A stretch of DNA of 64,000 nucleotides from contig CM068756.1 of assembly GCA_035084275.1 (NCBI GenBank), positions 7,626,001-7,690,000 on the forward strand, given 5' to 3'. This document shows, piece by piece, positions 21,105 through 61,725 of the stretch (position 1 is its first letter; each line of letters starts with the position of its first letter). A program made the translations under genes and the position numbers. The DNA is from Hydrolagus colliei. Lineage: Eukaryota. Under the pieces are notes generated by a model that saw only the letters and a program-made list of their open reading frames with translations, searched no databases and had not been told where the DNA came from.

Positions 21105-21835
21105 CAACAACAACAACAACAAATTACATTTATAGAGCGCCTTTCACGTCGGGAGGACGTCCCAAGGCGCTGTACAGGAGGCGTGTGACCCGAGCTGAGA
21201 GGGGAGTGTTTGGGAAGGGGTGAAACACGAAGGGGAGGTAAAAGAGTTCGGGGTGGAACAAAAGGCACGATCGAAGAGGAAAGTCTTCAAACCGGCCTTG
21301 AAAGAGGAAAGGGAAGAAACGAAACGGAGGGATTGAGGGATGGCATTCCATAGGGTGGGAGCGGAGAAACTGAAGGCCCGGCCTCCGATGGTGGGGTGGT
21401 TCGGGCAGGGGGCTTGGAGCAGGCCAAGTTCTGTTGAACGGAGGGTCCGGGTGGGCGTGTAGGGGGAGAGTAGATCGGTTAAATAGGGCGGGGCAAGGCC
21501 GTGTAAGGCCTTGTAGGTGAGGACGAGGATCTTGAACTCGATCCTCTGGAGGATGGGGAGCCAGTGGAGACGGGCGAGGGTGGGGGTTATGTGGTCGCGG
21601 AGGCGGGTGCGTGATAGTACACGGGCTGCAGTGTTTTGGATGACCTGCAGCCTGTGAATGGAAGAACTGGGGAGGCCGACGAAGAGAAAGTTTCCGTAGT
21701 CCAGCCGTGAGGTGATGTTTGCGTGCACGAGTGTTTCGACAGCGTGGGGGGTGAGATAGTTGCGGAGCCTGGCAATGTTGCGCAGGTGGAAATAAGCAGT
21801 GCCGGTCAAGGCGCGGATGTGGGGGAGGAAGGAAA
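21105..21835 (-). mobile_element. Young 5'-truncated L2 LINE with intact ORF2 C-terminus
   Basis: 221-codon ORF AYFHLRNIARLR...SRLDYGN...LQVIQNTAARVL...HITPTLARLHWLPI...GGRAFSFSAPTLWN; CpG-rich; (TTG)n tail. Confidence 0.97.
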
Positions 21836-24800
21836 GTCAACTTAGCATTGACTACGGTTTGGTTAACACATCTGCTGCTCTGCAAGAGTAATGGTGATTG
21901 CTTAGATGTCAAATGAAAGTGCATAGATTTTACACTGCTGGCAGAATCTTTGCCTATTCTTCCTTCTACCTGGTATCTTGGGAAGTCATTGAGCCAAATA
22001 ATCAATACTTTTACTGGTCACACCTCTACCTGTCTTATTCCAGTTACGGTAAATTGTGTTGTGGTACAGATTTTTGAACCTGTCTAACTGGAGCTGATGC
22101 AATATTTCTGAGCTACTAACATTTTGTTGCACAACAGTTAGCTGGTCCTCTCAATAGACTGAAAAACCTAGAAACCTTCACCAAGATACATTGTTGGAAA
22201 GTGTCAAGATTGGCTCAGCTGTATAATTCTTACCATATATAAAAAAAAGGACCACTAAATTACATTCCTTTGCAACGGTTCTTTTTAATACTCTTGCAGA
22301 GCAGCAGATGTGTTAACCAAACCGTAGTCAATGCTAAGTTGACACACTGTACAATATTTGCTCCTAAGGTACACTCTCACAATGGCAACCACTATAACTT
22401 ACTAAATTGAGCAACATAACTCATCTTTTCTTTTGTTTAATTGTCAGTGCGAGTCTATAATACCAACATATGGAGCTTTGTAAAATCTTGCATAGCTTCC
22501 AGTGAAAATCTTGCATAGCTTCCATTATCAACTACAATTCATGTTTTCAATCGGTGGAAAATCTTGAATATGATAAACTAATAAATGGAGATGTAAGATT
22601 AAAGAAATATTGTTTCATACAAGGTACTGAAATTAATCTCAAACTGATACAGACCTTGGACTGGTAACAGCAAATAAAAAGAACCTGGAACAGTTTCTAT
22701 TATTTGTTTAAGACTTGCAGATGATACATTTACACAAATTATTAATATCATCTGAATAATTTCTTTAAATATTTCAGTGGAAACTAAAAAGCTACTGTTG
22801 GAGCAACATTTAGAATTAACAATAGGTCTGTTTCCAGATACACAAATACAACCTTGATAGGTCCACAAATACCAATTTTGAAACTGAAAATCAGCAATAA
22901 GAAGGCATTTACATTAGTTTGCAAAAATCTACTAAAGCAAGACAGTCATTTATCTCACAAGACAATTATTATTTTGGTTCCCTAAAATCAACAGTAAAAA
23001 TAAAGAATTAGTAGAAGCAGCCACTTCCGAGCCATCCAATCAGTTATATGCTCATTCTCTGCTTTTCTCCTTCACCGGAGTCTGATTTGGAGAAAACATG
23101 TCTGCTCCACATCAATCCATTTCCACAGCGCAGTTTCTAGTATGACAGGTCATGGGTATGTACATTTTCATTGTAGCACTTATTATACTTTGGGTCATGG
23201 CAGTCAGATGAACAAGCTGGCAGCGCTGTGACATAGTTCACATTGCTTCCAGCAGTGCAGAAATGCAAAATATGCTGAAGTTCCTTCTCGGACTCTAGTG
23301 CTATCAGTAATTCAGCCCTAGAGATCAACTCCCGCAAACTCTTAAGATGTATTTCAGCATGAACATTTCGTTTAAAGGCACCCAAGAAAACAGAAACAAA
23401 TACATTTTACAGTAATTAACAAGGATTTCCCAGAACCCCTTTTCATCCATTTAATTTGCATTGGCACCTTCTGCTTCCATGCTCATTCAAACACACTTTA
23501 ATTGGATTCTTAAAAATATACAGAAACTTCCATCATTTCCAGTGGGTCTCTCCAGACATTTCCAAAAGGTACACCCAGATTGTTCATAATAAATGTAGCC
23601 AGACATCTAATAATGACCTACTCACTAATGAAAAAGCATTGTTGTTGCTGTAATTAACCACATGAAGATTTAAGTGCAAGGAAATTAGATCTATTTACAC
23701 ACAGTAATCTAGCTGATGAAGCTAAAGAAAGCTATGCGGGGAAACTCTTAATTAACCCTGAAGTGCATGATGTTCTTTTGCAGTGCATTTCTCAGCATAC
23801 AGGAGATTAAAAGAAAACTAACTTTGTTCGTATGTTATTGTTTCATACAGAATTTATATTTTGCTCTACATATTTCAAATTAAATATATTCCATTCTAGA
23901 TCATAAAGTGTTAAATAATTACAAGCCTTGTATCCAATAATTGTTTTACTTAAATTTTCATCCTTGTCTTTGCTCCTGAAAGCTAGGACTGATCTAGGAT
24001 ATAAATGCATGGGTGGGCAGATCCGTTTAATTTTTCTCCTCCGTAATCCACACAATTTAGGATTTGTCCACCTGAACAGGCAAATGGTACTTCAGTTTCA
24101 TGAAGGAAGCACTTCTGGCAATGCAATGTACCCACAACGTTTCTCTGGAGTATCAGCCTTGATTCTCCCAACAGGAGATTTTTAAAACAAGTAAAACTAG
24201 GCACCTATAATGCTATGGTTTCACAAAAAAGTCACAAATTCTGGTAGGGTATATTCCTCTTTGGTCCCTTACACCAGTTTGATCTCGTCAATCCTAATTT
24301 CCCAAACAATGAGGATTTTTTGGTTCTGATCTTGTCAACCCCAATCTTTCTGACTGGTTTCTTATCTGAGTGTCAAAGGGAGTGTTAAATTAAGCAGAGA
24401 TTTGTGAGAAAACAAGGTTAAAAACCACCAAATATAATTAGTCAGAGAAGTTTTCGGGTTAGAATCTGGAGACAAATAGACAAGGAGGAATTGCTGATGA
24501 CAAAATGTCTGGCACTTGAACTTTGTGTATTGGGTCGTGCCTTAACCATATATCGGTAAAACAGATTGAGAATTGAGGTGTAAGACCTGTGCGCTTAACA
24601 CAATAAATTTGAAGTGAGGCAAGTAAAGGAATGAACAGCGTTAACACACTTCCCAGAGGAACCAGATAATACTATTTTCTCTATAAAACTACCACTTTAA
24701 TTTTTTTGTCGGTTTACTTTGTACTTGTTGGACAAATAAAATTGCTTGTTATTGCACCATCATTTTGCTAGTCTCTTCCGAATCTTTCTGACTTGCAGAC

Positions 24801-41732: not shown

Positions 41733-41772
41733 CTTTAACGGCCCGAGGTTTAGACTGTTTCCGTCTGGACAT
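41733..41772 (-). CDS. ZNF423: ZNF423 coding exon 1 (MSRRKQSKPRAVK + 1 nt)
   Basis: ATG at 41772-41770; encodes the NuRD-binding N-terminal motif MSRRKQxKP shared by ZNF423/ZNF521/SALL/FOG; donor AAG|GTGAGC, phase 1; lies in a CpG-rich region. Confidence 0.95.
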
Positions 41773-50700: not shown

Positions 50701-52334
50701 TGAATGCCTAGAACAATGCAATCTTGTTCCCTAATAAAAATTTGGATACAGTCACCATTCTATGGAAGACAAAATCAATGTGTTTATAAAGCATAATAAT
50801 TTCACTCATCTCTCAATTTTACCAAGTTTGGAAGAGAAAAGAATGGAGAATTCTCTCTAATATCCCCAAAAGCCAATGCCAATGGTACTTGGTAGAACAC
50901 CTCAGCACACTGCTTTTCATTCAACTGCAGTGTGAGATTACACCCAACTGAATTCAATGTTTAAATAAAAGCACCATTGCAAAGTAACACAGGATTATTT
51001 ATTTAGTTTAAACACCTACCTATTACGCAAAGATACAGAATACATCCCCCTTTCCTTCAAACACCCCAACACATTGCAAAATATTGAGAACTGAGGTTTC
51101 TGAAATGATTATTGTGAGTTCCTCTCCAAATAACCGGAAATTTTATTGGTTTCAAATACAGTAAAGAAATTGTATTACTTTAATTGAGATACTAAACATT
51201 GCTTTTATCAAATCAATGCAGCACTTTTACAATGCTCAGTACAAAAAAGCAGTCAAGTGAACAACAGTTTTACAAATCTGGATAAGATAATACTGTAAGA
51301 TGATATTTGTTGAACTTTCAATTATACATGGTTTACACACCAATTGAGAGGGCAATCTTATTTATCTTCTGACTCTGTAAAAAATATCACCGTACAATAA
51401 AATCTTACTAAAAAAGGATCTCAGAAACAGAATGGAGGGAATATCAATGAGCATCTAACAAGTCAAATAATAAACAACCAACTCTAAAGATATAGAGCAA
51501 GACGAGAATTTTTCCTAACTTTTTAAAACCATTCACGGTGGCATTTAAAAATTACAAAAATTGTCCTTACACAAGAGTGTGGGCATACATCTTCAAAAAG
51601 AAATTTTTGAACTTTACAATGGGATTTATTTTAAATACTAAAATACTACAAATCAGTCTGTGACAATTCATCAAGGAGTCCTGTGGTATTGGCTTGGCAT
51701 CATACTTGTGGTGCTCTTCAAATATTGTTGTGTTGGTCTTACAAACTCCGCTCCAAAGCAGCGTGCATTCGGATATTTCATGTGGCTGTTGCTTACTGTG
51801 GCTGGGGCCTAGTACCTAACTTTAAATGAGCTGTGTTGGAACAAATAAAAATTATTTGCTGTGCAGGATACCGAGATCCAATATAAAGTTCACAACTATA
51901 GTTTGCAATAAGGTGAGAGCTTAGTGAACAACAAGCAAAATAGGATGAAATTCAAATTCAGAAAGAAAAATTAAAACAGGCCTGCAACTAAGAAGCAGCT
52001 TTTAACAAATTATGGGCACTCAAAAGGATCCCACATTCAAGCTCCTCCCTTGTTCTGCTAAAATATCATTATTATTATCATTCACAAAATGAAGTGCTGT
52101 GCAGAAGCATTACATTATAATTAGAGAGTTTTAAATCTCCACAAATCACATATGGAAATGGAGAAAACCAAGAAGCAATTTAGTTCTTGGCTATTATGGT
52201 GATGTCAAATTTGTTCATGTGTTAGCAATGAGAAGATGGTTTTCCCACCTAGCTTAACCCATTTTGGTTAATTAGTCCATGATTAAATATAAAATAATAT
52301 AGTAACACTAAATTGACTGTTAAAATAACCTGCA

Positions 52335-52970: not shown

Positions 52971-53173
52971 CTAACTTGGAACAGGCAGAAGAGCTCTTAT
53001 TGGGCGATCACCCAAGAGTGGAGCTTTTTTCTGAGTAAGTGGTGCTTGACCCAAAAGTGGTGGCCTGCTTGGTGTTGGGAGAAGGGGTTTAGGCTTGCTT
53101 GAGCATTGTGAAACTGTGCCTTGATCATAGTAATTCTCAGCCGCAACAGTTGCTTGAGCAGCAGCAGCAATAC
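52971..53173 (-). CDS. NCOA5-like probable last coding exon (Pro-rich, PLL repeats)
   Basis: Acceptor ccattgtag, phase 1; GIAAAAQATVAAENYY...KPLLPTPSRPPLLGQAP...APLLGDRPIRALLPVPS*; total CDS 1011 nt in frame. Confidence 0.7.
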
Positions 53174-54046
53174 CTACAATGGCGGGAAAATATATATTTA
53201 TAAAATACACGCATCATAACAATATAAAATAACATTAAGAGCAGTAAGATCAGTACAGTGTAATTATAAAACTTATATTAAGGAATACATTTGCAGCGAA
53301 TTGCATACCAATGAATGGGAAATCATTATCAATATCATTTTCCATTTCAGCTATTCTTTCCTGAAACCAAAATTCAAATAACTGAAAACTGTTGTGGCAA
53401 TTCTGCTCTGAGCCAAGTTATCTTATCCTTGTCACATGTTAGTTGTGCCCAATAGCTGCAGTCTTTGCCTCCAAAACATTCATTGTTAATCATTTTATCT
53501 TGTAAATAATTTATACTTTGTAAAAGGCAACTTACAAGAGTAAATTGTAGTTAAAAACCATTGAAAATATATGTACCCTTTAATTCAAAAACCGTTTAGT
53601 TCATTAAGGGTAATTAATATAGGGAACCCTGTTATAATGCAGTTATCATTGGTGGCTGGTCATCTTTTTGATAAACTTCAACCAACTAGCCAGTTACCAC
53701 GGAAATGGACCTTCGCATATTAAATGCCAGTTTAATGATTTCTGTAATCCAGTTTTGCATGGAAGGAAAGAGCTTGCAGTCACATCAGACTCTATGCAAG
53801 TGTGTCTGGGTTGTTATCAAATATCACATGCCACTTAAAGCATCAGGTTTTCATTGCTTCATTGAAATTTTTTTATTGCATTTGGTCGAATTCAAATACT
53901 TCATTTAAAACATTTAGATGCAACTGCAAATGTGTTAACTTTTGTCTCAAGTGCATTTAAAAATAAGTGCATTTGCAATTGGACGCAAGTCTGGTCACTC
54001 CCATTGAAATTAATTAATCTAAAGCTAACTACTATAAATGCAGTTA

Positions 54047-54417
54047 CCGTAAATCTCTGCGTATAAGGCACACTTTTTTTCATGTCGTAAAGTCTCGAAA
54101 GAGGGGGGGGTGCGCCTTATACGCAGATACAAGGAAAAGACGACCAGCCCCCAGAAGTACGTCATCAAACTGCGCCGCCAGTACGACTACCCGCTCTCCA
54201 GGATCGGCAATGCAGACCAGGCGCTACTCACCTTCGATGTCTGGTAATTCTTACTGCACCGCCGCTGGATTTTTTTTTTTGGTGCAAATCTTTTTTTCGA
54301 TAATATCACCAGCGGGAAAAAAAATTCCACTGGCAATATCATCGAAAATGCTTTCATTTTTTTTCGCCACAAGGTGGTCAAAAGTGGGGGGTGCACCTTT
54401 TACGCGGGTATTTACGG
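54047..54417. mobile_element. Tc1/mariner-superfamily (pogo/Tc2-like) MITE
   Basis: TA-CCGTAAATCTCTGCGTATAAGGCACAC ... GTGCACCTTTTACGCGGGTATTTACGG-TA; CpG-rich. Confidence 0.88.
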
Positions 54418-54465
54418 TAAGTGTTTTTTATTCAATGGATATAATTATTATATTTCATCACAAAC

Positions 54466-54747
54466 CCGCTTCATACTGCTCCTTTCTCTGGCCCAAGTAC
54501 TCAGCTAATTTCTGCATCTCTTCAGGATAAAGATGTTTTCCATCACCCAGCAGAAACAGAAGATGGCGAACGTGGCTTGGCACAATGTGGGTTTCCTCAT
54601 AATATTCACGATGTAGGTAATCATCAGCCAAGCTAGCTGCTTTGTATGCAATCTCAAGTCGTTCTTTTTCTTGTTGTTCACCATAAACACGTTTGTGCTC
54701 ACGAGAAATGAGGTCCAAAGCATCATCCAAAGGCATATTACGATGCT
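54466..54747 (-). CDS. NCOA5-like exon containing the LxxLL NR box
   Basis: EHRNMPLDDALDLISR...EKERLEIAYKAASLADD...HLLFLLGDGKHLYPEEMQKLAEYLGQRKE matches NCOA5 EHRNMPQADAMVLVAR...SLINLLADNRYLTAEE; acceptor is clear, donor GG|GTTTGT is weak. Confidence 0.9.
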
Positions 54748-55266
54748 CTATAGAAAAAGGGCAACATTGACAACAAAATTACTCTTGTAATAAGAACTCC
54801 TTCACGTTGGGAGGTTGACCTTAGGCCCTGGACAGTCATTGTTTCAGACTCGAGCTGAGGGGTTGAGATTGGGGAGGATGCAGGGCAGAAGGAGAGGAAT
54901 CGAAGGCATGATCTCTTTGTCATAGCTATAACTTACACTGAAATTTGTGAAGCAGAAACAGTTGCTCATGTAGCTACAAGAATGTGAGTGGAAGTTTTAA
55001 AATATGTACAATTTCTGAACATAATTTATCAGGAGCACAATATAATGCAGAAAAATTATGTTCATAGGAAATTATTTGAAAGGGATTTTAATAATATATA
55101 CAGCATGCAGAACGTGATGCATAAAAATTAAATAATTAATTGAATTTTGACCCAGGTCAAAAAGTAATTGACTTTAAACTGTTCCACTCACAACTGAGTG
55201 ATAATTCAGAATTAACATGTACAATGTTTTGATCCAACTTTGGCGATGGAGCAACTCCCTGTCAGA

Positions 55267-55280
55267 CCACTAGATGGCAC
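55267..55280 (+). promoter_or_regulatory. CTCF core motif CCACTAGATGGCAC
   Basis: Exact match to CCASYAGRKGGCRS; upstream AGCAACTCC resembles the CTCF upstream module. Confidence 0.7.
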
Positions 55281-55511
55281 AGTGTAGGAAATGTATTCTC
55301 CAGTTCAGAACTGACCCAACTCAAGTTGTGGCTTCCCAGAGAAGTTTGGCAGTAAATGTAACAAACATCCTGTGTACAGTTGGAGATATAATTTGCCCAT
55401 CACTCCATGGGGAAAGTTTGTGTGCAGCCCAAAAACAAGGTTGCCTACCAGCATTCTGTCTTCAAATTAGCACATTGCAATAGTATACAAATGTTATACA
55501 TGTGGTGGCAG

Positions 55512-55720
55512 TAATAATAATCCTTGCATTTGATATAGCGCTTTTCACATCTTATCAACTTCTCAAAGCGCTTCACAGAATATACTGTAAAGTGAAGATT
55601 GTATATTTGTGGGCGAGACACGGCAGTAAATTGTGCACTGTAGTGCCCCACAAACAGTCGTGGATTGAAATGATCAATTTTATTATTGTGTTTTTTTGGG
55701 ACGGATTATTATTATGCCTG
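55512..55720 (-). mobile_element. SINE (5' truncated)
   Basis: Same family as 10866-11173. Confidence 0.88.
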
Positions 55721-55965
55721 TGGAAGTATTATTATTAGGTACAGTAGCTTAAAAGAGAATTAGCTTTGAAGCCCACTTTCTAGGTTGGGTAACATATGGA
55801 ATCATATGTCTGACTCATACCATTAAAGTGGTAGGAAGGAGATGCATTCCCTAAATTTCTTATGTTGAATTAGTTTGGCCAGGTGGTCACCATCAGTGTT
55901 AAGCAAAGCAGAGATGGAAGTCTACCTATAAAATATGTTTTCCTACAGCCAGAAACCAGAACAAG

Positions 55966-56272
55966 TAATAATAATAATAATAATCCTTGTATTTGATATG
56001 GCGCTTTTCATGTGTTCTAGACGTCTCAAAGCACTTCACAGAATATCCTGTAAAGTGAATTGACTGTATAATTGTGGGCGAAACGCAGCAGTCAATTGCG
56101 CACTGCAGTGTCCCACAAACAGTAGTGGATTGAAATGACCAATTTTTTTTGAGGGATTATTATTAAGCGTGTGGAATACGGAAACTAGACCAAGGTTTCA
56201 CTCTGCCTGGAATTGAGCCTAGGTCTATCACTTGTAAGGTGAGTGCTCTAAATACAGAGCTACAGGACTCCC
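55966..56272 (-). mobile_element. Full-length tRNA-derived SINE
   Basis: Same family as 10866-11173. Confidence 0.9.
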
Positions 56273-56422
56273 CAAGTATGACCAATTACCCTGCTAATCT
56301 TCAAGTGGCAAATTTGTTTCTTTTATATAAACTTTCAAGGAAAATACAAATTGAACAAAATGTATTACTGGCAGTATATGTTTATGAAATTCTCTATCTT
56401 TTCTATATGGAAACAAACATAC

Positions 56423-56622
56423 CTTTGTGGCCACCGCATAGAATGATCACTGTGCATGATGATAGAGACTGATGTTCTGCACTTATAACAACACAAAAGG
56501 GCGAACCTTCTTCTTTAACATCTTTCAAAGCAGCTTCAAGTGCTAACTCCAATTTAAGGTACATAAGGTCAACAAGAAGCCCCAGTTCTTGCACTCGTCG
56601 TCCTACTAGTTTGGCATAATCC
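56423..56622 (-). CDS. NCOA5-like exon, anticodon-binding-domain-like core
   Basis: 200 bp; DYAKLVGRRVQELGLLVDLMYLKLELALEAALKDVKEEGSPFCVVISAEHQSLSSCTVIILCG resembles NCOA5 DYAESVGRKVRDLGMVVDLIFL...GSPFAIVITQQHQIHRSCTVNIMFG; canonical AG/GT. Confidence 0.93.
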
Positions 56623-56736
56623 CTTAAAATACAAAACATAGGATACATGCGGTTATTCAGATCAGCAACAAATATAAATCTAATGGATATGAATATTTCA
56701 CAAATGATTCAAAACAACAACATCAACAGTTATGTA

Positions 56737-57404
56737 CAGTAAAAGCCCGTTTATACGGCACCCGCGGGACCTGGCCAATGCCAGTTAAAGCACCTGCCGC
56801 ATATTCGGGCGGACGAAAACCCATCACAGAAAAATTAAAAGTTCTTTATACAAGAATATTGTATTGGTACTTATTGTTAAAACTAGTTTCTTGCATTTCT
56901 CACCTTTATTAGTTGAGGTTTATAGTCCAGTGATTCTTTTTAAAATGGAAGACGCCAAGCGTGTGGAAAAAAAAGGCAGCGCAACTTTAAAGCTTTACTA
57001 GCGGCACACCAATAATGCTAGACTCTACTAGTGGCAAGCCGAAATACTGCACCTGCGCAACAATGTGGGTTATCAGTTTGCCGCTAGTATGGCTTTAAAG
57101 TCGTGCTCCGTTTTTTTCACCCGCTTGGCATCCTCCATTTTAAAAAGAATCACTGGACTATAAACCTCAACCGCAGCATCATGGCTTCAGGCGCAGGATC
57201 TACCAGTAAAGGTGAGAAGTGCAAGAGAGTAATTTTAACAATAAGTATCAACACAATATTCTGTTATTATTTATGCATTTACAAATTCTCCACCGCTATT
57301 GTTCTGGATAAGTTCCGGTTTATCGAATGGGGACTTTTTTTGGGGGCATGCCGGTTAGACGAAAATGCCGGTTCACCGAGTCACGGATAAACGGGCTTCT
57401 ACTG
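56737..57404. mobile_element. Tigger/pogo-like MITE with long internal palindrome
   Basis: TA-CAGTAAAAGCCCGTTTAT ... ATAAACGGGCTTCTACTG-TA; internal inverted arms. Confidence 0.9.
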
Positions 57405-57558
57405 TATTAATAATTGTTCTACGTCAAAACTAAATTTCAGAACTACTTTAGTCATACAAATTGCTGCAACCATCCTATGCAAGATAGGAAGCTGCATGTA
57501 TCAAACTATGACCTTGCCCATTTATACTTATGAAAGAAATACCCTTGGAAATACTTAC

Positions 57559-57685
57559 CCTTGTTGCTTGCTTAGAGCTATAACCACACAATCTGCGTAC
57601 TTTTCTTTACTGTAGTCATCCTCTATCTCCTTATAGAACTGCTGATAAAGTTCATCTCGACGGCCATCATCTGGTCTGTAGCTCT
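57559..57685 (-). CDS. NCOA5-like exon (ESYRPDDGRRDELYQQFYKEIEDDYSKEKYADCVVIALSKQQ)
   Basis: 127 bp, donor AGG|GTAAGT; aligns by eye with NCOA5 RREELYRQYFEEIQRRFDAERPVDCSVIVVNKQ. Confidence 0.9.
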
Positions 57686-57859
57686 CTGTCATACACAAGA
57701 TAGGTCATTTTACACAGCTTAATCCACACCTACATTTTAATCTGTTACAATTAACTGCTATCAACAAAGATGCCAAAGAAAATATCCAAACTCATAATTC
57801 CATTAGTATTGTTTGCCACAAACATACATAGAATATATTTCTAACATTTTAGTGGAACG

Positions 57860-58225
57860 TTGTCAGTCTGGCTTAGTTGACAGCACTCATCTGCATGAAC
57901 CATAAATATGTGGTTTCAGGCATCAGGTGAACTCTAATATAGACACTCCATTCTTGGAAGGTGCCATTCCCTGATGAGATGTAAAACAAATGTCCAGTCT
58001 GGCTGTTGAGGTGGACATTAAAAGTTCCCACAGCACGATTTGTAGAAATGGGAGTTTCTCTTGTGTCAATACTTTTCCCCCGTCATTTGTGGGATATGAC
58101 TATTTGTGTACAAATTAACTGGGACATTTTATCCCAAAATACCACACTGACTACACTTTACAATTTGTCCCTGAAGTGCTTTGAAACTTCCCCCAACATG
58201 AAAAGTGCTATACCAAATTTAGGGA
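57860..58225 (+). mobile_element. DeuSINE-like SINE
   Basis: ggtggacattaaaagttcccacagcacgattt Deu-like domain; L2-like tail gaaaagtgctatacc. Confidence 0.6.
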
Positions 58226-58324
58226 TTTCTCTCCCCCCACTCCCCAGTAATTTTATTTGTACTTTCTATACAATTATTCTTGCAAAAATTCAAGGAAATT
58301 GGAAAGGTTAATGGTTAGTCATAC

Positions 58325-58401
58325 CAGGCCAAGTATAGTTGTATTCTTCTGCATTATAACCTTCAGGATACCCACTGTAGTATTCCATTACTTCATTAGT
58401 T
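58325..58401 (-). CDS. NCOA5-like exon (RTNEVMEYYSGYPEGYNAEEYNYTWP)
   Basis: Acceptor gttattttag, donor CTG|GTATGA; 77 bp open, phase 2 to 1, exactly bridging the neighbouring exon phases. Confidence 0.72.
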
Positions 58402-59061
58402 CTAAAATAACAAGAACAGACAAATTAGTTCATTCAAACAATTCACCAAAACAACTCACCACTCTTCTTCACCTAGAAATCTAACAGCAATCATGAATGT
58501 TAAAAGGAAACAGCCCACAGTTAGCAACACAGTTATTTGAACCACATCTTCTGAAACAGAGGTTTTGTTGCAAACATCAAAGTAGACTCAAAACAAGTGA
58601 AGCTTAGCAGCTACATATAAGGCCTTTAACTCCCACCTATTGGTCACAAAAATAAAAAAAAGTTGTAGAAAGTCACATTGAAATCTCCCATGTGGAAAAC
58701 AAGACTGAACTTGGACTCCAAAAAAATCTTTGAGAACGATAAATTAAAGAGCACAGAGAAGTGGAGAATTTCTCCTACTCTTATAAAGCACCAACTAACA
58801 CTCCTGAGTTAAACAAAACATGGGATAGATGGAAGTGCATCAATCTTTATCTGTGCAACACAGTGGAATCCGCTTTAGGCGGACGCCAATTAACCCGGAC
58901 ACCGGGTAAATCAAACAAAATGCCCGCCCCCGTTACATTTGTATTCTTACCAGTTTTAAAAACTGGTTGATCCAGACAAAAATCTCATGAATTTGTGCCA
59001 AATACCACATTGATTGCTGTTATTCTTCTATGTGTCGATTCCCTCCATTTAGTCATGAGGG

Positions 59062-59571
59062 CCTCCCAGATGGGAATGGGATTAACTCTTATGATTGATT
59101 GACAGCAGACTCCAGCCATTGACAAGTGGCTGGAGATGGCCTCGCAATCAGTGAAGAGGTGGAGGAAAAAGACATGGAACGTGAGGAGTCAAATCACGAT
59201 TGATTGACAGCTGGAGTTGGCTTGAAGTTGTTTGACAGCAAAACAAAGGTAAATATTTCACTGAACTCTTTGAGAGTTGGAGTCCTATTTGGTTAGTTAA
59301 CATTGCTGCGTGAAACAACATTATGGAGTCGGCCGGGCTACTCTGCCAGTCGGAAATGGTGGGCGGTGCCTCAGAACATTTAATAATATTGGAGCCATGG
59401 GGAGGGTAACCAGAAACGGGGTTGACCTGAGGATTCACATTAAACATTAGCAGCGGCACAGTTCTTCCCTGTTCCTCCACCCCTTCACTGATTGATAGTC
59501 CATCTCCAGCCACTTGTCGATGACTGTAGTCTGCAGTCAATCAAACTTAAGAGTCAATCCCATTTGGGAGG
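59062..59571. mobile_element. MITE with about 110-bp imperfect terminal inverted arms
   Basis: cctcccagatggga...gacaagtggctggagatgg...aatcagtgaagaggtggaggaa is mirrored by ttcctccaccccttcactgatt...ccatctccagccacttgtc...catttgggagg. Confidence 0.8.
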
Positions 59572-59776
59572 GGGCGAGGTGAAGGGGTTGAGGAATAGAA
59601 TACAATGTAAAAACATAACTATCCAAAGTGGGTAGAGAAATTTAGTACTGGAATTACAATCTTTGCAAGTCAGCAGCTAATATCCACTTAACACTACTAT
59701 TGTCCCAAATAATCCATTCCTTACCAACAAATTACAAATGTTTTAGTACTGAACTTGAAAAAAGTTTTTTCCATAC

Positions 59777-59839
59777 CTGTAAAGGTCAACCCTTTCACTT
59801 CTCAAAGGTGACCGATCTCGTTCTTGAGAAGATGTGGCA
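59777..59839 (-). CDS. NCOA5-like exon (SATSSQERDRSPLRSERVDLY)
   Basis: Strong polypyrimidine acceptor, donor CAG|GTATGG, phase 2-2; RDRSP motif as in the NCOA5 N-terminus. Confidence 0.8.
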
Positions 59840-60453
59840 CTATTAAAAGAAAAAAGAGAAAGGTTATTGAACTAATTTCTTAAAATACCTCAGATAAGTT
59901 GAAGTTTACTTAAACTAGAAATATGACGTGGGGTTGATGGTGTACCCCTGAACCACTGAACATGATTGTGCAGCTCAGCCACAAAAAACTTGAATAAACA
60001 CCAATGTGTCATGTAAAGTGGTATCAGATTTTATTACATACCAGATTTTATTTCATTACATACAATAGGGCCATTTCTGTTTTTCACAACAGCTGAGGAA
60101 AATACCCCACAATAATCGCTTAAACATTTTTTAAACAGCATAAACTTGAGATAATATGCTAATTTTAATATTTCTGTGAAATCAGTAATCAGACATGCCT
60201 GAGGATTTTATATTACACTTTTGAAACACACATATCAACAGCCTTGAACAGCCAACTAATATCTTAATTTAATGAAGAACTTGTAGAATTTTAGATTGGA
60301 ATGCCCCAAATCAACCTTCAAATTGTATATTTATTCAAATATCTGAAAATGTTAGCTCAAGTCTTTAAAGTGAACAGTACTACAAATTACATAGTTGGGT
60401 ATATTTAAATTGTTTATACATTTCAATATACAAAATAAAGAAGTTCTTCTTAC

Positions 60454-60512
60454 CTTTCGTCTGTACTGAGTCTATGTGAGGGACCTACCCTGGAATTTAA
60501 CCAAGCAGACAT
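60454..60512 (-). CDS. NCOA5-like first coding exon (MSAWLNSRVGPSHRLSTDE)
   Basis: Acceptor ttttatttctgtag at 60519, ATG at 60512, donor AAG|GTAAGA in phase 2; a short phase-2 start exon as in NCOA5. Confidence 0.75.
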
Positions 60513-61725
60513 TTTTACCTACAGAAATAAAAGAATTGTTCTAGCAATCTAAATTTAACAGCCACAACAACTTGGAATATTAAAACAAAATATGTGTTCT
60601 ACACAAGCATACAGTCACATTCATCCATACCATGTTGCTCTATTTGGTGGACAGCTACATAAAAACCTCAAAATGTTTGCAAAGAAACACTATACAAGGC
60701 AATATGTGGAATGCAAGGATTTTAATGTAATGTATAAGTTTACTTTTGATGTTGGTAAAATAAATATAAAAACATTTTCTTTTGGCTTGGAGCAAATCCA
60801 TGGTAAAAACAATATACATAATAATCCTTGCATTTGATTTGGCACTTTTCATGTCTTCTAGATGTCTCAAACATTACATTTAATACAGTGTAAATACAGT
60901 GTAAGTTAACTGTATTCTACACTAAGCTTATTCTATACAGGAATAGATAATTTAAAAAGATTGCATTTAAAGTGATATTCACTAGCTCACTTGACTAAAA
61001 TCTAATATCAATAAAAGATATTGCCTGCACTCGTTATTCTGATTGTATGTCTTCTCACACAACACATTCTTTATATACAATGTGTGAAATCAAGTACAAA
61101 ATAAGCAATTTAGCATGCAGTTATTCTACTGAAATATTTTGGAAATTTCCCAATTTCCCAACGCAGTAGAAATCTTATTCAAACCAAGTTGACTCTTAAA
61201 CTTTCAACAGCAGCCATTCTTATGACCTCTTCAACGACTGCCACTAACGTGGAACTAAATTATTTGCAGTTCTGAACTGTGAACCACAAGAAAATGAGTT
61301 GAATTTGCCAAAATACATTTAACAGACAATATTTGAGAGTAGAGAGAAAACTTTCATTTAATTAATTTGTTCTGTATCTCAGCAAAATGACTATGTACAA
61401 TATAATATCACTGTAACACTTAATCTCAACCATAATACTACATCAAATCACCTATAACCATATGGTACAATGTATTGGCAAATTAAGATATTCTTTTTTA
61501 AAAAAAACATTTGTGGGCATTCACACACAATCCATGCACTTTACAGCAAATCCTGTGACATGCTTTGGGGCATCTTGAGACCCTATACAAAATCCAAGTA
61601 CTGTATTATTATATAATAATCCTTGCATTTGATAAGTTATTTAAACAAAATTCTTATGCATACAAGAAATACAAAGGATTATACTGTACAATCAATAATG
61701 ATTAACCACTGACTAATTCCTATTT

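What the first reader, a model, noticed from the sequence alone, without database searches (positions are those of the whole stretch)
52971..60518. Compact NCOA5 paralog directly upstream of ZNF423, probably an ohnolog absent from mammals
Seen: seven exons splice in frame to 336 aa; five of them are missed or truncated by the ORF track. The protein keeps the NCOA5 core (class II aaRS anticodon-binding-like fold) and the NR box (LLFLL) but is clearly divergent. The long Arg/Asp repeat region shrinks to a single RDRSP, there is a Tyr-rich exon, and the tail carries repeated PLLPTP/PLLG motifs. Known: human NCOA5 is on chr20, and human ZNF423 is flanked upstream by CNEP1R1/HEATR3. Inference: this is a poorly characterised second NCOA5 family member retained from whole-genome duplication. 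I recall a similar unnamed teleost gene beside znf423 but could not verify it.
Basis: partly seen in the sequence, partly recalled or inferred. Interest (0 to 1): 0.7.

Follow-up and report, generated by a model that had tools for sequence, protein, structure and literature searches.

The report
Second NCOA5 gene with splicing-adaptor tail
This is a real, database-annotated but apparently unstudied sister gene of the gene regulator NCOA5; it likely arose in an early vertebrate genome doubling, is present from sharks to dogs and hamsters (so it is not missing from mammals), and has replaced NCOA5's tail with short repeated motifs predicted to grip splicing regulators such as hnRNP L.

Summary
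The model is 97% identical to Callorhinchus milii XP_007887624. The same genome holds canonical NCOA5 on another contig, with matching intron phases. A tree gives two well-supported jawed-vertebrate clades (NCOA5-like 100/99, NCOA5 97/94), and three more paralog pairs link the two contigs, so an ohnolog origin is likely. 'Absent from mammals' is wrong: orthologs are annotated in monotremes, marsupials, xenarthrans, carnivores, bats, camelids, pig and hamsters; no primate, mouse or bird name appeared among the listed hits. The gene is annotated as 'NCOA5-like' or si:ch211-216l23.2; my searches found only one passing sentence in print. New here: this copy lacks the ancestral RRM and both ancient C-terminal motifs, and carries a conserved tail of LLPTP and LLGxxP motifs. 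These resemble peptides by which SETD2 and Raver1 bind RRM2 of hnRNP L and PTB. Binding is untested, and the window's LLGxxP motifs miss the strict PTB consensus. An ordinary lost-and-kept ohnolog with one testable mechanistic lead.

The parts
60454..60518 (-). Coding exon 1 (ATG at 60512); begins at a splice acceptor, so a non-coding exon lies upstream
   Evidence: matches P0001 residues 1-19
59777..59839 (-). Coding exon 2 (63 nt, phase 2-2), single RDRSP; likely the shrunken counterpart of the 141-nt Arg/Asp exon of NCOA5; this segment is missing from several shark and skate isoform models
58325..58401 (-). Coding exon 3 (77 nt, phase 2-1), Tyr-rich, predicted disordered
57559..57685 (-). 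Coding exon 4 (127 nt; 124 nt in NCOA5), helix leading into the anticodon-binding-like domain
56423..56622 (-). Coding exon 5 (200 nt, same length as in NCOA5), core of the anticodon-binding-like domain
54466..54747 (-). Coding exon 6 (282 nt), end of the domain, long helix and helical hairpin
54548..54562 (-). LLFLL (LxxLL), aligned with the NCOA5 NR box, within a predicted helix
52976..53173 (-).
53070..53090 (-). K-x-LLPTP motif, resembling the SETD2 peptide that binds hnRNP L RRM2
53001..53060 (-). Two P-LLGxxP motifs, PRI-like but with Pro at position 1
51793..51830 (-).
51142..51630 (-). Candidate AATAAA signals at 51630 and 51147 in the presumed 3' UTR (inferred, no reads)
41733..41772 (-). 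Neighbour: first coding exon of the zinc-finger gene read as ZNF423, about 10 kb downstream on the same strand, in a CpG-rich stretch; the name is recalled from sequence and fits the CNEP1R1 adjacency

Best explanation
This is an intact eight-exon paralog of NCOA5, kept in most jawed vertebrates including many mammals, that likely arose by early vertebrate whole-genome duplication and likely works as an adaptor whose new tail is predicted to dock on RRM2 of hnRNP L-type (and perhaps PTB-type) splicing regulators. Shown: gene structure; a separate canonical NCOA5; two clades; shared paralog pairs on the two contigs; retention of the anticodon-binding-like core and LxxLL; no RRM signature and neither ancient C-terminal motif; a conserved LLPTP/LLGxxP array. 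Inferred: whole-genome rather than block duplication (about 0.8); that the core still binds the partners NCOA5 binds; that the Leu-Leu pairs insert into the helical back of RRM2 as those of SETD2 and Raver1 do (about 0.4); that the outcome is control of alternative splicing in the nucleus. The confidence below is for origin and mechanism together; the paralog identity alone is about 0.98.
For: Only two matches in the genome for each of two core exons: this gene and C26. The six junction phases before the tail are 2,2,1,2,1,1 in both genes, with a 200-nt exon in common (my arithmetic). Tree of 48 chosen rows, 194 columns: NCOA5-like 25 rows 100/99, NCOA5 8 rows 97/94, invertebrates apart 100/98; AU p 1.3e-8. 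C23 carries a PX-TPR gene 330 kb away whose only match is a gene 58 kb from NCOA5 on C26, an MMP2-like and an SLC12A4-like gene; C26 carries MMP9-like and SLC12A5-like genes. Tail motifs in 77 chosen orthologs: LLP[T/A]P in 64 (about 1 expected from shuffled tails), LLGxxP in 63 (about 6 expected); 0 of 6 canonical and 0 of 4 cyclostome tails. Of all 155 listed ortholog representatives, 127 have LLPTP and 127 LLGxxP. The tail is predicted disordered (pLDDT under 50). SETD2's LLPTP peptide binds hnRNP L/LL RRM2 through its Leu pair (passages, bioRxiv 10.1101/2021.05.22.445248). This genome encodes the hnRNP L RRM2 segment that lines that pocket almost unchanged.
Against: No binding, localisation or expression data. 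The window's two LLGxxP motifs have Pro at position 1 and fail the PRI consensus [S/G][I/L]LGxxP: 0 of 13 cartilaginous-fish rows meet it; 48 of 155 orthologs meet it and 12 of 155 the refined high-affinity form. The best-conserved copy has Arg at position 6, where a polar residue weakens PTB binding (PMC3420021 passages). SETD2 needs flanking residues for full affinity (KD 12 uM for the short peptide). Teleosts have largely lost the motifs (LLPTP 1 of 10, LLGxxP 3 of 10) and 3 cricetids have at most one. Two of 10 invertebrate tails also hold strict PRI matches. Orthologs are related, so motif counts are not independent, and I picked the motifs after seeing the window's tail. The MMP2/MMP9 calls rest on small score gaps (239 vs 227 and 193 vs 189 bits). 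The LBP/BPI/CETP family gave 15 of 15 matches on C26 and none on C23, so that expected pair gave no support. Cyclostome placement is unresolved.
Confidence: 0.45

Rival explanations
1. Same origin, but it is simply a second nuclear-receptor coregulator acting through the LxxLL box like NCOA5/CIA, and the tail is a generic Pro-rich linker or a ligand for other domains.
For: LxxLL is kept in 148 of 155 ortholog representatives, more faithfully than in canonical rows (4 of 8). NCOA5 is described as a coregulator of ER, RVR and LXR (PMC5746116 introduction passage).
Against: The motif also stands in 7 of 10 invertebrate rows and is broken in teleost and frog NCOA5. It lies in a confidently predicted helical hairpin, so it may be structural; burial was not computed. 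It does not explain the position-conserved Leu-Leu motif array.
Confidence: 0.33
2. The copy arose by a segmental (block) duplication in early vertebrates and not by one of the whole-genome doublings.
For: Only four paralog pairs on two contigs were examined; no third or fourth copy was found; the LBP/BPI/CETP pair gave no support.
Against: Timing falls between amphioxus and the cartilaginous/bony split. The pairs span 2.3 Mb of C23 in a different order from C26. The human 16q/20q paralogon is recalled as a 2R product (not checked by a call).
Confidence: 0.12
3. The gene is a dispensable relic drifting towards loss.
For: Long stem branch (0.48 vs 0.16 for NCOA5); faster change in eutherians; gapped partial models in two cetaceans; no primate, murid or bird name among listed hits.
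Against: Open frame and motif order kept from chimaera to carnivores; core 79-82% identical between this genome and shark or skate; 0 of 24 differences in a second DNA data set fall in the 1044 coding bases (chance about 0.06; weak).
Confidence: 0.08
4. It is this genome's NCOA5 ortholog, merely diverged.
For: RefSeq names the C. milii protein 'nuclear receptor coactivator 5' without '-like'.
Against: A separate gene on C26 is 77% identical to vole NCOA5 in the core, against 43% for this gene, and sits beside an SLC12A5-like gene; tree and AU test.
Confidence: 0.01

Closest known systems
NCOA5 / CIA (nuclear receptor coactivator 5; domain structure PDB 1v95)
   Same: Anticodon-binding-like domain, following helices, LxxLL position, six intron phases, 47% core identity to this genome's own NCOA5.
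   Different: No RRM signature (0 of 155, against 10 of 20 canonical, cyclostome and invertebrate rows), Arg/Asp exon cut to 63 nt, the FDNP-type C-terminal motif absent (0 of 155 against 18 of 20), tail replaced by LLPTP/LLGxxP repeats.
Database entries 'NCOA5-like', si:ch211-216l23.2, Xenopus LOC100145527, dog LOC487290, C. milii XP_007887624
   Same: These are the orthologs of this gene.
   Different: Automatically named; my paper searches found no study of them beyond one sentence noting an extra NCOA5-like gene in carnivorans and some cetartiodactyls.
SETD2 SHI motif bound to hnRNP L / LL RRM2 (PDB 7evr, 7evs)
   Same: K-x-LLPTP in a disordered region.
   Different: SETD2 has one motif with an upstream flank needed for full affinity; this protein has one exact LLPTP in the window species and up to five in frogs, with a different flank. 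Binding untested.
Raver1 / Matrin3 PRI motifs bound to PTB RRM2
   Same: Several LLGxxP motifs in a Pro-rich disordered C-terminal tail.
   Different: Window motifs start with Pro and fail the consensus; no RRMs of its own, whereas Raver1 has three and Matrin3 two.
Class IIa aminoacyl-tRNA synthetase anticodon-binding domain (PF03129; ThrRS, HisRS, GlyRS, ProRS)
   Same: Fold of about 98 residues, rmsd about 2-3 A; Pfam E 6e-4, just under the cut-off for P0001.
   Different: 10-23% identity, no catalytic domain; tRNA binding not tested.

Membership tests
NCOA5 family | Anticodon-binding-like core domain | tested here: met
NCOA5 family | LxxLL with overlapping hydrophobic corepressor-type motif | tested here: met
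   by sequence only; 148 of 155 orthologs
NCOA5 family | Shared exon-intron phases | tested here: met
   six of six junctions before the tail
NCOA5 family | Binds and regulates ER, RVR or LXR | not testable with these tools
   function known for human NCOA5 only
NCOA5 ortholog group | Falls inside the NCOA5 clade, no second copy | tested here: not met
NCOA5 ortholog group | Long Arg/Asp region, conserved C-terminal motifs, RRM in non-mammals | tested here: not met
Vertebrate WGD ohnolog | Duplication after amphioxus, before the cartilaginous/bony fish split | tested here: met
Vertebrate WGD ohnolog | Both copies lie in paralogous blocks | tested here: met
   three further pairs of four families tried; the fourth gave no C23 match
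Vertebrate WGD ohnolog | Assignable to 1R or 2R through cyclostome copies | tested here: inconclusive
   five hagfish and lamprey rows unresolved
SETD2-type hnRNP L RRM2 ligand | LLPTP in a disordered region | tested here: met
SETD2-type hnRNP L RRM2 ligand | Upstream flank that raises affinity | not tested
   importance read; no comparison made
SETD2-type hnRNP L RRM2 ligand | Direct Leu-pair-dependent binding | not testable with these tools
   needs ITC or pull-down
PRI-bearing PTB cofactor (Raver1, Matrin3) | [S/G][I/L]LGxxP consensus | tested here: not met
   window protein and 0 of 13 cartilaginous-fish rows; met in 48 of 155 orthologs
PRI-bearing PTB cofactor (Raver1, Matrin3) | Binding to PTB RRM2 | not testable with these tools
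   needs experiment
Class II aminoacyl-tRNA synthetase | Catalytic domain | tested here: not met
   only the roughly 98-residue anticodon-binding part aligns

The most novel reading that the evidence does not exclude
After duplication this NCOA5 copy dropped its own RRM and gained a multivalent array of Leu-Leu motifs that recruit hnRNP L/LL and PTB through the back of RRM2. It would be an unrecognised vertebrate-wide splicing cofactor that links an anticodon-binding-like, nuclear-receptor-contacting core to exon choice, and that primates, mice and birds have each lost.
Probability: 0.25. Interest if true: 0.68.

Novelty: new variant of a known kind. Interest (0 to 1): 0.36.

Why it matters
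Ohnologs kept in some vertebrates and lost in humans are common, and this one is already in the databases, so its existence would not surprise a specialist. It matters in three modest ways. It corrects naming: several species' 'NCOA5' entries are this gene. It shows that the family's ancestral form had an RRM, which points the family towards RNA biology. And it offers a cheap test of whether a hidden paralog became an hnRNP L/PTB cofactor; few proteins are known to bind those RRM2 surfaces. If the losses in primates, mice and birds hold, that would explain why it went unstudied.

Tried and rejected
RNA support: no RNA holder listed; the one run listed is contigs that span the introns, so it says nothing on junctions. 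Pfam on single exons: 0 families in 5 of 5. Fold search of the exon-6 helical part: best Z 5.9, generic helices only, uninformative. ESM Atlas: no usable hit for the Xenopus tail, no name for the ZNF423 exon. PxLxP (MYND-type ligand, recalled) as the tail signal: 0 of 13 cartilaginous-fish rows, set aside. An extra exon in intron 6 for the segment that sharks have: no tblastn match. A complex prediction with hnRNP L or PTB RRM2 was not run: the domain is split over short exons in this genome and no intact partner protein was held. Paper searches: NCOA5+paralog, 25 of 30 listed, none on this gene by title or abstract start; ch211-216l23.2, 0; NCOA5L/NCOA5LP/NCOA5-like/coactivator 5-like, 2 papers, one read as a passage; four locus ids plus NCOA5P, 1 paper, which names the neighbouring .1 gene; NCOA5+YLPM1 and NCOA5+splicing+interactome+PTBP1, listings only, nothing used, listings only apart from PMC5746116. 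Sauve 2001 and Gillespie 2015 are not held. Earlier findings of this scan: nothing. I recall a human pseudogene symbol NCOA5LP on 16q12; no call confirmed it.
Full report
Observation. The closest database protein, Callorhinchus milii XP_007887624 (P0001), continues 11 residues further. Those residues are encoded at 51828-51796 behind a good acceptor, and a donor follows base 52976. The eight-exon model is 347 aa and differs from P0001 by 10 substitutions and a poly-Ala gap. Shark and skate orthologs end alike. The genome is thus a holocephalan close to C. milii (inference from identity). The ATG exon begins at an acceptor. A CpG island 1.5-2.5 kb beyond the window's end holds minus-strand donors, CCAAT and ETS-like motifs about 200 bases from the CNEP1R1 start, so a shared two-way promoter is likely but unshown.

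Expression. No RNA run of this species was listed. In relatives, Xenopus has a curated NP_ record, and several full-length orthologs come from Logan contigs of 1.5-2.1 kb, too short to hold the introns, so probably spliced transcripts (inference). In a second DNA data set, 0 of 24 differences in covered sequence fall in the 1044 coding bases; chance is about 0.06, weak support.

Paralogy. Each of two core exons finds exactly two places in the genome: this gene and C26:6.75 Mb. The C26 gene is canonical NCOA5: 77% core identity to vole NCOA5 against 43% for the window gene; the two copies share 47%. The junction phases are the same for six junctions and one exon is 200 nt in both, so this is a DNA-level duplicate. 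I chose 48 rows from the several hundred proteins held. The tree (194 columns) gives NCOA5-like 100/99 and NCOA5 97/94, each running from cartilaginous fish to mammals, with invertebrates apart at 100/98; five hagfish and lamprey rows are unresolved. Forcing the cartilaginous-fish copies of both genes together is rejected, p 1.3e-8.

Synteny. On C23 the order is a C2H2 zinc-finger gene (ZNF423 by recalled sequence), this gene, then CNEP1R1 head to head; the next two genes look like HEATR3 and TENT4B by recall only (no Pfam match). A PX-TPR gene 58 kb from NCOA5 has its only match 330 kb from this gene (41%; SNX21/SNX20 by recall). C23 also holds MMP2-like and SLC12A4-like genes, C26 MMP9-like and SLC12A5-like genes, the latter next to NCOA5 (MMP score gaps are small). 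The LBP/BPI/CETP family matched C26 only. Timing plus paralogous blocks make a whole-genome duplication likely; 1R versus 2R is open.

Distribution. Listed hits (best 120 of 249, best 120 of 160, 20 of 20; cluster members) include sharks, rays, bichir, gar, teleosts, coelacanth (UniRef label Si:ch211-216l23.2), all three amphibian orders, alligator, turtles, tuatara, squamates, platypus, echidna, marsupials, armadillo, sloth, tamandua, shrew, mole, fruit bats, pangolins, carnivores, camelids, pig, hippopotamus and cricetid rodents. 'Absent from mammals' is therefore false. One preprint sentence agrees (10.64898/2026.05.21.726804, one passage). No primate, Mus, Rattus, ruminant, horse, afrotherian or bird name appeared. 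That is weak evidence of loss: rows show cluster representatives, candidates come from a word index, and some rows are unnamed.

Anatomy. The P0001 model has a confident core at about 71-290 and disordered ends. The core matches 1v95 (E 4e-12, rmsd 1.4 A) and class IIa synthetase anticodon-binding domains. LxxLL is kept in 148 of 155 ortholog representatives, but also in 7 of 10 invertebrate rows, and it is broken in 4 of 8 canonical rows. It lies in a predicted helical hairpin, so it may be structural as much as a receptor-binding box. This copy is the derived one: an RRM signature occurs in 10 of 20 canonical, cyclostome and invertebrate rows (Pfam-confirmed in manta ray and amphioxus) and in 0 of 155 orthologs; the FDNP-type tail motif in 18 of 20 against 0 of 155.

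The new tail. In 77 orthologs that I chose across clades, LLP[T/A]P occurs in 64 and LLGxxP in 63, against about 1 and 6 from shuffled tails; canonical tails have 0 of 6, cyclostomes 0 of 4, invertebrates 0 and 2 of 10. The motif order is kept from chimaera to carnivores; teleosts and cricetids have largely lost it. SETD2 binds hnRNP L and LL RRM2 through the Leu pair of an LLPTP peptide, and the authors call LLPTP the motif hnRNP L seems to prefer (bioRxiv 10.1101/2021.05.22.445248; passages and section 10; its supplementary figure 7 may bear on this and was not seen). This genome keeps that pocket segment nearly unchanged. Raver1 and Matrin3 bind PTB RRM2 through [S/G][I/L]LGxxP (PMC3420021 and PMC4365034, passages). 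The window's motifs miss that consensus at position 1; 48 of 155 orthologs meet it and 12 the refined form. So hnRNP L is the better candidate, PTB the weaker one.

Mechanism and verdict. I commit to an adaptor that keeps NCOA5's core and uses the tail to dock on hnRNP L-type RRM2 domains and influence splicing. Identity, loss of the RRM signature and the motif array are shown; binding, nuclear location and any splicing effect are inferred. The main rival is a plain second nuclear-receptor coregulator (NCOA5's role as read in the PMC5746116 introduction). The gene is annotated across vertebrates, and my searches found no study of it. It is an ordinary pattern of ohnolog retention with one new, cheap-to-test lead: interest 0.36.

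Noticed in passing
G000:C26:6740954-6741061 (L006): Canonical NCOA5 in this genome has an RRM-type exon; manta ray, frog, teleost and amphioxus NCOA5 have an RRM while the vole protein starts after it, so mammalian NCOA5 seems to have lost an ancestral RRM.
   Followed up: partly
proteins P0319, P0320, P0325, P0327, P0335: Hagfish and lamprey hold at least two, perhaps three, NCOA5-family lineages, all with the ancestral tail motif where the tail is present.
   Followed up: partly
protein P0017 (Metynnis hypsauchen): A gene model fuses a SPRY/RING protein (RSPRY1 by recall) to NCOA5-like; probably two neighbours merged, hinting at teleost gene order.
   Followed up: no
proteins P0297, P0301, P0296, P0299, P0303: Two cetacean models are partial with internal gaps, and cricetid rodents have eroded the tail motifs; possible ongoing decay.
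   Followed up: no
window 58480-58460 (minus): A 13- or 21-nt stretch in intron 2 has plausible acceptor and donor sites; either form would bring a stop between exons 2 and 3 (possible poison exon or chance).
   Followed up: no
window 62112-62010 (minus): A CRE-like palindrome, two half-sites and a good donor in the presumed first intron; possible alternative 5' exon.
   Followed up: no
window 55200-57500, 60600-60980, 21147-21836: Very high-copy short repeats in the introns (summed contig depth up to 3.8 million) and LINE-like reverse-transcriptase-tail remnants (type recalled).
   Followed up: no
G000:C26:7953000-8047000 (L053-L058): Tandem array of six LBP/BPI-family genes.
   Followed up: no
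L008:5431-7041 (G000:C26 about 6.725 Mb): An uninterrupted 537-codon TRIM frame (RING, B-box, PRY-SPRY) just upstream of canonical NCOA5.
   Followed up: partly
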